A stretch of DNA of 64,000 bases. It comes from Escherichia phage ECML-1. Position numbers and translations under genes: made by a program. The notes below the pieces were generated by a model. The model saw only the letters and a program-made list of their open reading frames with translations, had not been told where the DNA came from and did not search any database. Positions 57,975 through 58,762 of the stretch are shown in pieces. Each line of letters begins with the position of its first letter. Position 1 is the first letter of the stretch. The stretch is from the sequence record OL631478.1; one strand, 5' to 3'.

Positions 57975-57980
57975 GTTTTG

Positions 57981-58053
57981 ACAGAAGACCAATTACAGCA
58001 AACTTAATCTACTCATCTGAAAGTTAATCGGACAAAGAAGATATTTGGTCTGG
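57981..58053 (+). ncRNA. structured spacer element, copy 1 of the cagaAGACC/GGTCTgg hairpin family
   Basis: acagaagacca...tggtctgg; stem agacca/tggtct encloses a ~55 nt loop starting ttacagcaa. Confidence 0.45.
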
Positions 58054-58064
58054 TCATTAAGAAT

Positions 58065-58141
58065 TGCGGGTATAGAGAAAGGGCGTCTCACATGTCTCAT
58101 TAGCATGGTATCGGCAGGTTCGACTCCTGCACCCGCCTCCA
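58065..58141 (+). tRNA. tRNA-Met(CAT)
   Basis: Anticodon arm catgt-ctcatta-gcatg, T-arm gcagg-ttcgact-cctgc, CCA encoded; first acceptor pair is a T-C mismatch. Confidence 0.5.
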
Positions 58142-58146
58142 AATTT

Positions 58147-58212
58147 ACAGAAGACCGTTTACAGCAATATTTATTAAATTTTTAGCGGAAAAAATTGAAA
58201 TATACGGTCTGG
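58147..58212 (+). ncRNA. structured spacer element, copy 2
   Basis: acagaagaccgt...acggtctgg; stem agaccgt/acggtct covaries with the other copies. Confidence 0.45.
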
Positions 58213-58225
58213 TAATACTAAACAT

Positions 58226-58302
58226 GGTTAGGAAGCACATAAGGTATGTGCGGTCGCCTGTTAAGCGAATGGCACAGGGTTCGAATCCCTGACTAACCGC
58301 CA
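58226..58302 (+). tRNA. tRNA-Asn(GTT)
   Basis: D-stem gcac/gtgc, anticodon loop ctgttaa, T-arm caggg-ttcgaat-ccctg, CCA encoded; one acceptor mismatch. Confidence 0.55.
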
Positions 58303-58310
58303 AATTAAAT

Positions 58311-58398
58311 GTGTCGTTATCCCGTAGATGGTAGCGGTGGGGACTGTAAATCCCTTGTCATTGAGACTCGGTAGGTTCGACTCCTACACGGCACACCA
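58311..58398 (+). tRNA. tRNA-Tyr(GTA)
   Basis: Type II (long variable arm), anticodon loop ctgtaaa, acceptor gtgtcgt/acggcac, CCA encoded. Confidence 0.6.
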
Positions 58399-58403
58399 AT
58401 AAA

Positions 58404-58480
58404 GGCTATGTAGTTTAACTGGAGAAAATACTCCCCTGTCACGGGAGATGATGTGAGTTCAAGTCTCATCATAGCCGCCA
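58404..58480 (+). tRNA. tRNA-Asp(GTC)
   Basis: Acceptor ggctatg/catagcc, anticodon arm ctccc-ctgtcac-gggag, CCA encoded. Confidence 0.65.
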
Positions 58481-58510
58481 ATTTTGAGAGGGCTATTTAG
58501 CCCCTCCCTT

Positions 58511-58540
58511 AAAGGGTTCTTACGAGTATCCTTTAAAGGA
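58511..58540 (+). ncRNA. conserved spacer hairpin (aagg-Rttcttacgag-tcctt family), copy 1
   Basis: aaagggttcttacgagtatccttt; a related copy is at 62446..62470. Confidence 0.35.
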
Positions 58541-58617
58541 GCAGAAGACCAAATACAGCAAGAACGTATGAAAATTTCAAGCCAATTTAATTTTGAAAAA
58601 TTTAAAACTTGGTCTGG
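58541..58617 (+). ncRNA. structured spacer element, copy 3
   Basis: gcagaagaccaa...ttggtctgg; stem agaccaa/ttggtct. Confidence 0.45.
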
Positions 58618-58629
58618 CTCAACAAATTT

Positions 58630-58762
58630 ACAGAAGACCGTTTACAGCAAAACTTAAACAATCTATTTCTCGGTAAAGAAAAGGCGAAGGTTCGATTCCT
58701 TCACTCGGCAGATGTCGAGTTGGTGTAATGGTAGCACTTAAGATGATAAACAACGGTCTGGT
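58630..58762 (+). ncRNA. candidate Y-RNA-like tRNA mimic (copy 4 of hairpin family enclosing a tRNA-like module)
   Basis: Stem agaccgtt (58635-58642) pairs with aacggtct (58752-58759) and encloses a T-arm gaagg-ttcgatt-ccttc plus acceptor-3'-like cactcggca and a D-arm-like gagttggtgtaatggtagcac, with no canonical 5' acceptor strand or anticodon arm. Confidence 0.35.

What the first reader, a model, noticed from the sequence alone, without database searches (positions are those of the whole stretch)
57975..58762. Four-copy spacer hairpin family with compensatory base changes in the stem
Four spacer elements share cagaAGACC-NN-ttacagcaa ... NN-GGTCTgg. The variable dinucleotides change in a complementary way between copies (cca/tgg, ccgt/acgg, ccaa/ttgg, ccgtt/aacgg), a classic covariation signature for a conserved RNA helix. 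Loops differ in length; the fourth encloses the tRNA-like module. Not explained by tRNA genes or ORFs.
Basis: seen in the sequence. Interest (0 to 1): 0.8.

Follow-up and report, generated by a model that had tools for sequence, protein, structure and literature searches.

The report
Phage Y RNAs beside Ro60-like gene
The four repeated hairpins between the tRNA genes of this Felix O1-like phage are most likely small non-coding "Y RNAs", one of them carrying a tRNA look-alike domain, that work with the Ro60-like RNA-binding protein encoded just upstream; they form an unannotated variant of a known RNA-protein system that also turns up next to the same protein in many unrelated phages.

Summary
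Across relatives both helices covary strongly (98.9% paired, 9 of 11 pairs with double-sided changes).

The identity comes from the neighbourhood. The ORF directly upstream (56229-57644) has a Ro60 fold: the top 10 PDB matches are all Ro60, although Pfam reports only DUF2828 and DUF7788. Copy 4 encloses a tRNA-like domain in the order V, T, acceptor-like hairpin, D, which is the architecture of bacterial YrlA Y RNAs.

The same stem-plus-ACAGCAA hairpins lie on the gene strand next to DUF2828 genes in phages of Klebsiella, Listeria, Staphylococcus, Bacillus, Campylobacter, Mycobacterium and Aeromonas.

They fail two tests for YrlA membership. The GNCGAAN0-1G motif is absent, and Rfam gives no hit. 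I therefore file them as a new variant of the Y RNA kind. Binding to the protein and expression are inferred, not shown.

Bas63 carries the same four hairpins, and a 2024 preprint reports that its Ro60-like gp130 (98% identical) counters the Ppl defence system.

The parts
56229..57644 (+). Gene for a 471-aa Ro60-like protein (HEAT-repeat ring plus vWA domain), the presumed protein partner
   Evidence: Pfam gives DUF2828 and DUF7788 only, with no TROVE hit. PHROG 850 is 'RNA-binding protein'. The AlphaFold2 model has pLDDT 90.2. The top 10 PDB matches are all Ro60 (phage phiLo 9kop/9l5y, Xenopus 1yvr/2i91/1yvp, Deinococcus 2nvo), with E 1.5e-8 to 6e-7 and TM 0.45-0.64; the next hits are vWA-only at E >= 1.7e-3. 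The protein is 98% identical to Bas63 gp130.
57663..57783 (+). Two sigma-70-like promoter matches (57663-57691 and 57754-57783) between the Ro60-like gene and the first tRNA
   Evidence: Consensus scan gives 10/12 matches for each site. There is no + strand terminator-like site between 57810 and 59150. Co-transcription of the hairpins with the tRNAs is inferred from this.
57810..59144 (+). First block of the tRNA array (Pro, Glu, Met, Asn, Tyr, Asp, Lys, Met, Ile), in which the four elements are interleaved
   Evidence: ARAGORN and Rfam tRNA calls. Processing of the flanking tRNAs would release the elements; this step is inferred.
57979..58056 (+). Y RNA-like element 1 (short). P1 UGAC/GUCA; loop AGA/G; P2 AGACCAA/UUGGUCU; UUACAGCAA at 57993-58001; AU-rich apical part
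   Evidence: CM R1 scores 47.2 bits, E 5.7e-13.
58145..58215 (+). Y RNA-like element 2 (short). P1 UUAC/GUAA; loop AGA/G; P2 AGACCGU/ACGGUCU; UUACAGCAA at 58159-58167
   Evidence: CM R1 scores 50.0 bits, E 6.2e-14. Orthologues show UUAC/GUAA changing to UUGC/GCAA.
58539..58620 (+). Y RNA-like element 3 (short). P1 GAGC/GCUC; loop AGA/G; P2 AGACCAA/UUGGUCU; AUACAGCAA at 58553-58561
   Evidence: CM R1 scores 45.9 bits, E 1.6e-12.
58628..58764 (+). Y RNA-like element 4 (YrlA type). P1 UUAC/GUAA; loop AGA/G; P2 AGACCGUU/AACGGUCU; UACAGCAA at 58643-58650. It encloses a tRNA-like domain.
   Evidence: CM R1 scores 25 bits, E 1.8e-5, but the match covers only 58628-58676 because the insert is long. 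The consensus fold with 12 homologues recovers the P2, T, AS and D helices: 23 pairs, 17 of them with compensatory changes.
58666..58681 (+). V (variable-arm-like) hairpin of element 4: UUUCU-CGGUAA-AGAAA
   Evidence: MFE fold; position found.
58686..58702 (+). T-arm mimic: GAAGG-UUCGAUU-CCUUC
   Evidence: GGUUCRA is invariant across 13 homologues, and the outer three of the five stem pairs covary.
58703..58720 (+). Acceptor-stem-like hairpin: ACUCGGC-AGAU-GUCGAGU. The stem is 7 bp, and A follows the 3'-type strand in the discriminator position.
   Evidence: Read from the sequence and the fold. The stem sequence differs in nearly every homologue while pairing is kept.
58723..58737 (+). D-arm mimic: GUGU-AAUGGUA-GCAC, with the loop positions corresponding to A14, R15, G18, G19 and A21 of a tRNA
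   Evidence: Read from the sequence; conserved in the alignment.

Best explanation
The four elements are genes for small non-coding Y RNA-like RNAs that partner with the phage's own Ro60-like protein, encoded directly upstream.

Proposed sequence of events:
1. They are transcribed on the + strand as part of the tRNA precursor, from promoters just downstream of the Ro60-like gene.
2. The enzymes that trim the neighbouring tRNAs release them.
3. Every copy keeps the same basal module: 4-bp outer helix, AGA/G internal loop, 7-8-bp helix beginning A-G and ending C-U, then single-stranded (U)ACAGCAA opposite an A-rich strand. This invariant part is the likely docking site for the Ro60-like ring.
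4. The apical parts differ and would specify what the particle is tethered to. Three copies carry AU-rich loops. The fourth carries a complete tRNA look-alike (V, T, acceptor-like hairpin, D), as in bacterial YrlA.

Because the acceptor-like stem has 7 bp followed by an A, copy 4 may be cut by RNase P and receive CCA, as reported for M. smegmatis YrlA. By analogy with Ro60-Y RNA-PNPase particles, the complexes probably redirect host RNA-handling enzymes during infection. In the near-identical phage Bas63 the protein is reported to counter the Ppl defence system.

Shown here: the sequences, the covarying structure, the Ro60 fold of the neighbouring protein, and the cross-phage association.
Inferred: transcription and processing, protein binding, RNase P cleavage, and biological role.
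For: Family and structure:
- Four copies exceed chance. CM R1 finds exactly four, all on the + strand.
- On 24 distinct Ounavirinae-type elements, P1 and P2 are 98.9% paired and 9 of 11 pairs show double-sided changes. The covariation score is 0.727 against 0.232 in shuffles (0 of 500 reach it), and sliding the partners drops pairing to 22-42%.
- One-sided changes are of the G-U type on the + strand.

Partner protein:
- The upstream ORF has a Ro60 fold; the top 10 PDB hits are all Ro60.

YrlA-type architecture:
- Copy 4 has the order V-T-AS-D described for YrlA (PMC4201824). The consensus fold with 12 homologues gives 23 pairs, 17 with compensation.
- The homologous long element in Klebsiella phage FBKp34 matches Rfam YrlA at 39.6 bits, E 2.5e-5. 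The one in mycobacteriophage LilDestine scores 21.7 bits, E 0.47.

Association with the gene:
- Stem-plus-ACAGCAA hairpins in 1-5 copies lie on the gene strand next to DUF2828 genes in Klebsiella, Listeria, Campylobacter, Mycobacterium, Staphylococcus, Enterococcus, Bacillus, Fusobacterium and Aeromonas phages, sometimes upstream and sometimes downstream of the gene, and with or without tRNAs nearby.
- The stem covaries across these genera: 95.7% paired, all 7 pairs with double-sided changes.
- In 65 environmental DUF2828 loci, ACAGCAA occurs 104 times on the gene strand and 22 times on the other. The strict hairpin descriptor gives 22 hits against 0.

Literature:
- Bas63 gp130 is 98% identical and Bas63 carries the same four hairpins. 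The PhageMaP preprint reports gp130 as Ro60-like and a Ppl counter, and guesses that Y RNAs lie among the tRNAs (10.1101/2024.10.10.617714).
- A phage Ro60 binding phage-encoded Y-like RNAs and host PNPase has been shown for Thermus phage phiLo (PMC12135203).
Against: - There is no direct evidence of transcription, of end positions, or of binding to the Ro60-like protein.
- The canonical Ro60-contact motif GNCGAAN0-1G (CGAA) is not present in the basal stem. The window has C-AGAAG and relatives have CAUAAG or CAAAAG.
- Rfam YrlA and Y_RNA give no hit in the window even at E <= 10.
- The protein matches Pfam DUF2828, not TROVE, and has no sequence-level match to solved Ro60 structures.
- Only about a third to a half of distant DUF2828 loci show a hairpin with the exact ACAGCAA motif within 3 kb.
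- In the covariation alignments the 3' partners were chosen by maximising pairing, which biases the counts toward the structure. The chance rate of finding such a partner was 0.45%.
- MFE z-scores of the single short copies are modest, -1.3 to -2.1.
Confidence: 0.8

Rival explanations
1. The hairpins are processing or punctuation signals of the tRNA operon, for example sites for RNase III, RNase E or a phage endonuclease. They would help cut the long precursor or protect tRNA ends, and would have no specific link to the Ro60-like protein.
For: They sit exactly in the spacers between tRNAs and begin a few nucleotides after a tRNA 3' end. In Ounavirinae and in Bacillus phage MrDarsey they are interleaved with tRNAs. 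A 24-bp perfect duplex that could be an RNase III site lies right after copy 4.
Against: The same hairpin type occurs next to DUF2828 genes where no tRNA is adjacent: Staphylococcus phage S-CoN_Ph16 (three copies after the gene), mycobacteriophage LilDestine, and the Fusobacterium and Aeromonas phages. The most conserved feature is a single-stranded heptamer, which is not what RNase III recognises. A conserved, covarying tRNA-like domain inside one copy is not needed for a cleavage signal.
Confidence: 0.09
2. They are remnants of tRNA genes: tandemly duplicated, permuted or decayed tRNA pseudogenes, with copies 1-3 having lost the tRNA part. They would carry no function of their own.
For: Copy 4 contains perfect T-arm, D-arm and 7-bp acceptor-like pairing in permuted order. 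Annotators' tRNA finders call 'tRNA-Thr-GGT' (129 nt) or 'tRNA-pseudo/OTHER' here in several records.
Against: The basal module is under purifying selection with compensatory changes from Felixounavirus out to relatives whose partner protein is only 55% identical, and beyond. The acceptor-like stem changes sequence but keeps pairing. There is no anticodon loop. ARAGORN and Rfam tRNA do not call it. The tRNAscan call fuses the 3' strand of copy 3 with the T arm of copy 4.
Confidence: 0.04
3. They act at the DNA level, as inverted-repeat ends of a small mobile element or as recombination or homing-endonuclease target sites within the mosaic tRNA region.
For: The tRNA region of these phages is mosaic with indels, and it carries HNH endonuclease genes (ORF 59438-59836). 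The elements are bounded by inverted repeats.
Against: All copies in all phages lie on the strand of the Ro60-like gene, with none on the opposite strand. One-sided substitutions are G-U compatible only on the + strand. The four copies sit at orthologous positions from Felixounavirus to Mooglevirus rather than showing presence/absence polymorphism. The pattern scan of IMG/VR found complete elements only in Felixounavirus-like contigs of about 87 kb.
Confidence: 0.03
4. They are structured RNAs with a different job: cis-regulatory operators or decoys that titrate the Ro60-like protein or a host factor, or an undescribed self-cleaving ribozyme that cuts the precursor.
For: In Vibrio phages the 5' half of the motif lies about 30 nt upstream of the DUF2828 start codon, in a small hairpin that would cover the ribosome-binding site and the AUG. 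The AGAA strand opposite GUC loosely recalls loop A of the hairpin ribozyme (from my own knowledge; not tested beyond Rfam).
Against: No Rfam ribozyme family matches at E <= 10. The AGA loop is not conserved in relatives, where it is AUA, AAA or ACA. In the window the elements are downstream of the gene and outside any mRNA leader.
Confidence: 0.04

Closest known systems
YrlA (Y RNA-like A; Rfam RF02553; Chen et al. 2014, PMC4201824)
   Same: It is encoded beside and on the same strand as a Ro60-type protein. The 5' and 3' ends pair into a basal stem. Internally it has a tRNA-like domain in the order V, T, acceptor-like stem-loop, D, with tRNA-type T-loop and D-loop nucleotides. It is accompanied by one or more shorter Y RNAs. 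A 7-bp acceptor-like stem is also found in the M. smegmatis YrlA that RNase P cleaves. A homologue in a Klebsiella phage scores 39.6 bits against the Rfam model.
   Different: The basal stem lacks GNCGAAN0-1G and instead has the AGA/G loop plus ACAGCAA. There is no Rfam hit in the window. The partner protein belongs to Pfam DUF2828/DUF7788 rather than TROVE. There are four paralogues, interleaved in a tRNA array.
Thermus phage phiLo Ro60 with Yrl1 and Yrl2 (PMC12135203)
   Same: A phage-encoded Ro60-fold protein with two or more Y-like hairpin RNAs encoded next to it. That protein is the best structural match of the window ORF (9kop, E 1.5e-8). Binding of the RNAs, and a complex with host PNPase, were shown there.
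   Different: Yrl1 and Yrl2 were picked by their CGAA motif and lie upstream of the gene. No tRNA-like module is reported for them. There is no sequence similarity to the window elements.
Metazoan and Deinococcus Y RNAs (Rfam RF00019; Yrn1)
   Same: Small RNAs whose paired termini form a bulged helix that docks Ro60, while variable loops tether other proteins. Several paralogues occur per genome.
   Different: The conserved contact sequence is different (GGUCCGA type). There is no ACAGCAA motif. No Rfam match was found.
Circularly permuted tRNA genes (Cyanidioschyzon merolae type) and two-piece tmRNA
   Same: The 3' half of the cloverleaf (T arm and 3' acceptor strand) precedes the 5' half (5' acceptor strand and D arm) in the gene.
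   Different: There is no anticodon loop, no bulge-helix-bulge motif and no tag reading frame. The anticodon-stem position continues into the conserved basal stem, so a decoding tRNA or a tmRNA cannot be made.

Membership tests
Y RNA (functional class: small RNA partner of Ro60) | Encoded close to, and on the same strand as, a Ro60 orthologue (bacterial and phage cases) | tested here: met
   The elements start 335 nt downstream of ORF 56229-57644 on the same strand. That ORF has a Ro60 fold, but only at fold level: Pfam TROVE is not matched and there is no sequence-level match to PDB entries.
Y RNA (functional class: small RNA partner of Ro60) | 5' and 3' ends pair into a stem with a bulge or internal loop that carries the conserved binding site; variable apical region; length about 80-130 nt | tested here: met
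   P1, the AGA/G loop and P2 are present in all four copies, with covariation. Lengths are 78, 71, 82 and 137 nt.
Y RNA (functional class: small RNA partner of Ro60) | Physically bound by Ro60 in vivo or in vitro | not testable with these tools
   This needs RIP, CLIP or EMSA. The only evidence here is genomic association across phage genera.
YrlA (Rfam RF02553 / Chen et al. 2014) | GNCGAAN0-1G motif near the 5' end, in the basal stem | tested here: not met
   The basal stem reads (U/G)NNC-AGA-AGACC. Relatives have CAUAAG, CAAAAG or ACAAG. A literal GGCGAAG occurs at 58683-58689, but it forms the T stem and is not conserved (GAGAGAAG or GGAGAAG in relatives).
YrlA (Rfam RF02553 / Chen et al. 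2014) | Internal tRNA-like domain in the order V, T, AS, D, with tRNA-type T and D loops | tested here: met
   Met for copy 4 only: V 58666-58681, T 58686-58702 (UUCGAUU loop), AS 58703-58720, D 58723-58737 (AAUGGUA loop). Copies 1-3 lack the domain.
YrlA (Rfam RF02553 / Chen et al. 2014) | Score at or above the Rfam gathering threshold (69 bits) | tested here: not met
   No YrlA hit in the window at E <= 10. Homologues in other phages score 39.6 bits and 21.7 bits.
Short companion Y RNAs (YrlB / Yrn2 type) | [quoted passage not shown] | tested here: inconclusive
   Copies 1-3 are companion hairpins sharing the basal module, but their apical parts are large, AU-rich and weakly structured. The family has no sequence definition to test against.
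Ro60 / TROVE protein family (for the neighbouring ORF) | HEAT-repeat ring plus C-terminal vWA domain; Pfam TROVE (PF05731) match | tested here: inconclusive
   The fold criterion is met: full-length matches to Ro60 structures with TM 0.45-0.64. The Pfam TROVE criterion is not met; only DUF2828 and DUF7788 match.
tRNA | Cloverleaf with a 7-nt anticodon loop in the standard 5'-to-3' order | tested here: not met
   ARAGORN and the Rfam tRNA model do not call 58628-58764. The order is permuted, and the anticodon-stem position runs into P2.
Permuted tRNA genes | Bulge-helix-bulge at the paired termini, and a mature tRNA with an anticodon after circularisation | tested here: not met
   The termini form P1, the AGA/G loop and P2, not a 3-4-3 bulge-helix-bulge. 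No anticodon loop can be assembled.

The most novel reading that the evidence does not exclude
The stem-plus-ACAGCAA hairpins are the cognate RNA ligands of a large, phage-borne branch of Ro60-like proteins (Pfam DUF2828/DUF7788). This would define a pan-phage Y RNA class with its own recognition motif, one not represented in Rfam. The class would be found in phages of Proteobacteria, Firmicutes, Actinobacteria, Campylobacterota and Fusobacteria, typically as arrays of paralogues. Their different apical domains (tRNA mimic, T-arm only, AU-rich loops) would direct the same protein to different host enzymes or RNAs. In Felix O1-like phages this ribonucleoprotein, rather than the protein alone, would be what defeats the Ppl defence system.
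Probability: 0.5. Interest if true: 0.75.

Novelty: new variant of a known kind. Interest (0 to 1): 0.6.

Why it matters
Y RNAs and Ro60 are well known from animals and from a few bacteria, but their role in phages is barely explored. Here the RNA partners of a Ro60-like protein can be pinpointed in a widely used phage group, the Felix O1-like phages, which includes the BASEL phage Bas63. They are unannotated or mis-annotated there, either as pseudo-tRNAs or as small reverse-strand ORFs.

A 2024 preprint found that the Bas63 protein counters the Ppl defence system and guessed that Y RNAs hide among the tRNAs. These four elements are concrete candidates, so that hypothesis can be tested by deleting them or by mutating ACAGCAA.

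The shared motif across distant phages also offers a handle for finding the RNA partners of the whole DUF2828 protein family. It also offers a way to study how a tRNA look-alike is used by a virus.

Tried and rejected
- **Rfam.** cmscan at E <= 1 on 57600-64000 and at E <= 10 on 57975-58790 gave no ribozyme, Y_RNA or YrlA hit on the elements.
- **Hairpin-ribozyme resemblance** (AGAA opposite GUC). Dropped: there is no Rfam support, and the loop is not conserved in relatives.
- **Permuted functional tRNA, or splicing by bulge-helix-bulge.** Rejected: no anticodon loop and no BHB geometry.
- **The 'tRNA-Thr-GGT' annotation in some GenBank records.** An artefact that fuses the 3' strand of copy 3 with the T arm of copy 4.
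- **Independent covariance model R2.** It was built only from hairpins of other phage genera, as mini-constructs with the loops removed, and did not recover the window copies with or without filters. The model cannot span the real inserts of 40-100 nt, so the test is uninformative. I replaced it with a descriptor test.
- **MAFFT alignment of full-length short elements from many phages.** It did not put the 3' strands in register, so no third model was built.
- **Model R1 (Ounavirinae-based).** It does not detect the elements of distant genera.
- **phmmer of the protein against PDB sequences.** Nothing relevant was found; only the fold comparison showed the Ro60 relationship.
- **Literature gaps.** The supplementary tables of Chen et al. 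2014 (list of 22 phages) and the 2020 Annual Review are not held. I therefore cannot exclude that some long elements of DUF2828 phages were already listed there.
- **Literature searches.** Searches for DUF2828 or Felixounavirus together with Ro60 or Y RNA returned only the PhageMaP preprint.
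Full report
**Context.** The window comes from a Felix O1-like phage (Felixounavirus). The region 57600-59500 matches 288 phage records, most of them Escherichia, Salmonella and Shigella Ounavirinae, at 80-99% identity. ARAGORN finds 25 tRNA genes between 57810 and 63556, all on the + strand. The finding lies in the spacers of the first part of this array.

**The observation.**
- The pattern AGAAGACCNNWTACAGCAA occurs four times, at 57983, 58149, 58543 and 58632, all on the + strand. Shuffles gave a mean of 0.66 matches, and none of 100 reached four.
- Each occurrence is closed by NNGGTCTGG 57-123 nt downstream.
Outside the AGACCNN/NNGGUCU helix (P2) there is a 4-bp outer helix (P1) that differs between copies in a complementary way: UGAC/GUCA, UUAC/GUAA, GAGC/GCUC and UUAC/GUAA. 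It is separated from P2 by an internal loop with AGA on the 5' side and G on the 3' side.
- The variable dinucleotide in P2 has only two versions: AA/UU in copies 1 and 3, and GU/AC in copies 2 and 4.
- Single-copy MFE z-scores are modest, -1.3 to -2.1. The case therefore rests on comparison with other genomes, not on thermodynamics.

**Comparative evidence within Ounavirinae.**
- An exact-pattern scan of IMG/VR returned 67 stretches. Only the Felixounavirus-like contigs (about 87 kb where full-length) carry several copies with the closing strand; the single matches elsewhere lack it.
- All four copies sit at the same positions in Mooglevirus.
- I used the upstream protein to reach more distant relatives (63-55% protein identity; loci L072-L074). 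The same kind of element is there, interleaved with tRNAs, but with different helix sequences. One example is GAAC-AUA-AGUAUC...GAUACU-G-GUUC. Another is UUGC-AAA-AGUGUC...GACACU-G-GCAA.
- I extracted elements by sequence anchors only: P1, then ANA, then RG on the 5' side, and CY then G then P1' on the 3' side. This gave 83 distinct elements. The chance of finding a partner with at least 10 of 11 pairs in shuffled downstream sequence was 27 in 6060.
- On 24 distinct basal modules the proposed structure is 98.9% paired and 9 of 11 pairs show changes on both sides. The covariation score is 0.727, against 0.232 ± 0.029 in shuffles (0 of 500 reach it). Sliding the partners by 1-3 columns drops pairing to 22-42%. 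The 3' partner was chosen by pairing, so these counts lean toward the structure, although the anchors are independent of it.
- Within the closely related phages, single-sided changes are of the G-U type on the + strand: AGACC to AGGCC opposite GGUCU, and GCUC to GUUC opposite GAGC. Copy 2 switches between UUAC/GUAA and UUGC/GCAA. This indicates an RNA read from the + strand rather than a DNA-level palindrome.
- A covariance model of the basal module finds exactly four matches in the window (E 6e-14 to 2e-5); the next best hit has E 0.77.

**What the neighbourhood says.**
- The ORF immediately upstream (56229-57644, + strand, 471 aa) is annotated in relatives as 'vWFA protein', 'RNA-binding protein', 'DUF2828' or, in mycobacteriophages, 'Ro-like RNA binding protein'.
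- Pfam gives only DUF2828 and DUF7788. PHROG 850 is 'RNA-binding protein'. A sequence search of the PDB finds nothing relevant.
- An AlphaFold2 model built from 70 homologues (pLDDT 90.2, pTM 0.89) was compared with the PDB. The ten best matches are all Ro60: Thermus phage phiLo Ro60, Xenopus Ro60 alone and with RNAs, and Deinococcus Rsr. They are full-length matches with E 1.5e-8 to 6e-7 and TM 0.45-0.64. The next hits are isolated vWA domains at E >= 1.7e-3.
- Ro60 proteins work with small Y RNAs, whose paired ends carry the Ro60 site and whose loops tether other proteins. In bacteria at least one Y RNA per locus (YrlA) contains a tRNA-like domain arranged V, T, acceptor-like stem-loop (AS), D (PMC4201824).

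**Copy 4 has that architecture.** Between the two strands of P2 it contains four features:
- a small V hairpin (58666-58681);
- a T arm, GAAGG-UUCGAUU-CCUUC (58686-58702);
- a 7-bp acceptor-like hairpin, ACUCGGC-AGAU-GUCGAGU (58703-58720), with an A in the discriminator position;
- a D arm, GUGU-AAUGGUA-GCAC (58723-58737), preceded by a U in the position of tRNA residue U8.

An RNAalifold consensus of copy 4 with 12 long elements recovers P2, T, AS and D. Those elements come from Mooglevirus, the distant Ounavirinae-like contigs, Klebsiella phage FBKp34, mycobacteriophage LilDestine and Bacillus phage MrDarsey. The consensus has 23 pairs, 17 of them with compensatory changes. GGUUCRA of the T arm is invariant, and the AS stem differs in sequence in nearly every lineage. 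That matches what Chen et al. describe for YrlA.

**Link to YrlA by score.** Rfam's YrlA model does not hit the window at E <= 10. It does hit the homologous long element of the Klebsiella phage at 39.6 bits (E 2.5e-5; gathering score 69) and the one in LilDestine at 21.7 bits (E 0.47).

**The family extends beyond Ounavirinae.**
- Directly after the Ro-like gene of LilDestine there are three tandem elements of the form GUGG-NNNN-UA-ACAGCAA...NNNN-CC-AGU. The middle one carries the tRNA-like domain.
- The same design is a covarying stem, then ACAGCAA 0-2 nt after its 5' strand, an A-rich opposite strand, and usually a G after the 3' strand. It occurs on the gene strand, within a few hundred nucleotides of the DUF2828 gene or in the tRNA array beside it, in these phages:
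  - Klebsiella FBKp34: three copies;
  - Listeria A511: three;
  - Campylobacter PC14: two;
  - Staphylococcus S-CoN_Ph16: three, with no adjacent tRNA;
  - Enterococcus VRE9_1: one;
  - Bacillus MrDarsey: five, interleaved with tRNAs, one with a full tRNA-like domain;
  - Fusobacterium Fnu1: one;
  - Aeromonas LAh_6: three.
- A Xanthomonas jumbo phage showed none. In Vibrio phages only the 5' half is evident.
- Across 23 elements from these genera the 7-bp stem is 95.7% paired and all seven pairs show double-sided changes.
- In 14 inspected loci a strict descriptor gave 20 hits on the gene strand and none on the other.
- In 65 further environmental DUF2828 loci (38-47% protein identity), ACAGCAA occurs 104 times on the gene strand and 22 times on the opposite strand. 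The strict descriptor hits 22 times against 0, in 21 loci. A relaxed descriptor hits 57 of 104 sites, against 3 of 22 on the other strand and 25% in shuffles. Several of these contigs carry full tRNA-like modules.
- The same strict descriptor, whose parameters were set without reference to the window, picks exactly the four copies in the window. Shuffled windows gave a mean of 0.145 hits.

**Interpretation.** The invariant part of every copy is the basal module, and the variable part is apical. This is the logic of Y RNAs: a constant protein dock and exchangeable tethers. I therefore read the four elements as Y RNA-like genes. One is YrlA-type and three are short companions, all partnering the Ro60-like protein encoded upstream.

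Two promoter-like sites (57663-57691 and 57754-57783) precede the array, and no + strand terminator-like site lies between 57810 and 59150. The elements are thus probably made as part of the tRNA precursor and released by tRNA end-processing; this is inferred. M. smegmatis YrlA, the one YrlA with a 7-bp acceptor-like stem, is cut by RNase P and receives CCA. Copy 4, with its 7-bp stem and discriminator-position A, may behave the same way; this is also inferred.

**Function by analogy.** Ro60-Y RNA-PNPase particles degrade structured RNA. The phage phiLo Ro60 binds two phage Y-like RNAs and assembles with host PNPase (PMC12135203). For Felixounaviruses specifically, the PhageMaP preprint reports that Bas63 gp130 is structurally Ro60-like and that its deletion sensitises the phage to the Ppl defence system. 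[quoted passage not shown] Bas63 gp130 is 98% identical to the window ORF, and Bas63 has the same four hairpins in the spacers. They are not among its annotated tRNAs, and they partly lie under reverse-strand 'hypothetical protein' annotations.

**Comparison with the known families.** The elements work like Y RNAs and copy 4 is built like YrlA, but membership in YrlA as defined fails on two tested features.
- The GNCGAAN0-1G motif is absent from the basal stem. The window has C-AGAAG, and relatives have CAUAAG or CAAAAG. A literal GGCGAAG at 58683-58689 is part of the T stem and is not conserved.
- The Rfam gathering score is not reached.

The partner protein is also outside Pfam TROVE. I therefore classify the finding as a new variant of a known kind. 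I could not consult the supplementary tables of Chen et al. 2014, which list 22 phages. Some long elements of DUF2828-type phages may therefore already have been listed. Nothing in the held literature links DUF2828 or Felixounavirus spacers to Y RNAs beyond the PhageMaP guess.

**Rivals.**
- Pure processing signals are unlikely. The hairpins follow the DUF2828 gene even where no tRNA is adjacent, and their most conserved feature is a single-stranded heptamer.
- Decayed tRNA genes are unlikely because of purifying selection and compensation.
- DNA-level repeats are unlikely because of the strict strand bias and the G-U-type changes.
- A regulatory or ribozyme role has no support in the window. 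However, the Vibrio-phage arrangement, with the motif hairpin over the ribosome-binding site and start codon of the gene, hints that the protein may also recognise its own mRNA.

**Limits.** There are no expression or binding data. The covariation alignments were partly fitted to the structure. The cross-genus covariance model failed for technical reasons. Only a third to a half of distant DUF2828 loci show the exact motif within 3 kb.

Noticed in passing
window 58763-58910 (+): A further structured RNA candidate lies directly after copy 4. It has a near-perfect outer duplex of about 24 bp enclosing three small hairpins (MFE -47.9 kcal/mol, z -5.7, 0 of 200 shuffles as stable). It is conserved at this position in Mooglevirus and in more distant relatives, with a covarying outer stem and a conserved apical loop CYUWAGCAAG. 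There is no Rfam match. It lacks ACAGCAA in the window, but the corresponding element in L073 (7225-7400) begins with a family-like UUGCAAAGAAUCUUUCAGCAU.
   Followed up: partly
L069 1164-1292 (phage ASO1B); also 'tRNA-pseudo/OTHER' features in several records: tRNAscan-SE annotations of a 129-nt 'tRNA-Thr-GGT' are mis-calls. They join the 3' strand of hairpin copy 3 (the GGU of GGUCU taken as anticodon) to the T arm and acceptor strand of copy 4.
   Followed up: yes
window 58628-58858 (-), a 76-aa ORF; L086 37749-37901 and 37913-38023 (bas63_0137 and bas63_0138): Small reverse-strand 'hypothetical protein' ORFs are annotated over the Y RNA-like element 4 and the long-stem RNA. They are probably spurious. 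Knock-out data for these 'genes' would in fact report on the RNAs.
   Followed up: partly
window 59393-59471 (+): A tRNA-like gene scored 31.7 bits by Rfam tRNA but was missed by ARAGORN. The position-equivalent feature after tRNA-Ile in Bas63 is annotated tRNA-Arg (AGA), and the anticodon stem-loop reads GGUCUUCUAAACC.
   Followed up: no
window 59145-59392 (+): A conserved non-tRNA spacer lies behind a strong promoter match (59160-59188, 11/12). It has weak tmRNA and permuted-tmRNA hits (E 0.002-0.004) and contains a conserved anticodon-arm-like hairpin, CCAGUGAGGUCUUCCAAUCCCUCAUC, also seen in L070 and L072.
   Followed up: no
L077 2955-3010 and L102 about 2955-3010 (Vibrio Schizotequatrovirus-type phages): The 5' half of the family motif (AUCAAAGACAUUUUACAGCAAU) sits about 30 nt upstream of the DUF2828 start codon. 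A small hairpin, GACAUU/AAUGUC, would enclose the Shine-Dalgarno sequence and the AUG. This suggests possible autoregulation of the Ro60-like gene.
   Followed up: no
L078 1465-2016 (Listeria phage A511): A ROOL RNA match (87.5 bits, E 2.5e-16, just under the gathering score of 99.1) lies about 1 kb upstream of the DUF2828 gene and its three ACAGCAA hairpins. A weak skipping-rope match (29.1 bits) lies just after the DUF2828 gene in L074, at 5501-5563.
   Followed up: no
L082 1335-1440 (Bacillus phage MrDarsey); L104 1906-2107: Some family members carry only a T-arm mimic (GGGG-UUCAAUU-CCCC), or a T arm plus D arm without the acceptor-like hairpin. These are intermediate forms between the short and the YrlA-type elements, and they recall the T arm reported in M. 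smegmatis YrlB.
   Followed up: no
window 59438-59836 (+) and 59976-60050 (+): An HNH-type endonuclease ORF (CxxC...CxxC...HH) lies inside the tRNA array. A possible tRNA-Trp, which is annotated in phage VpaE1_ev78, gets only a weak Rfam tRNA-Sec-clan hit (23 bits) in the window and no ARAGORN call.
   Followed up: no
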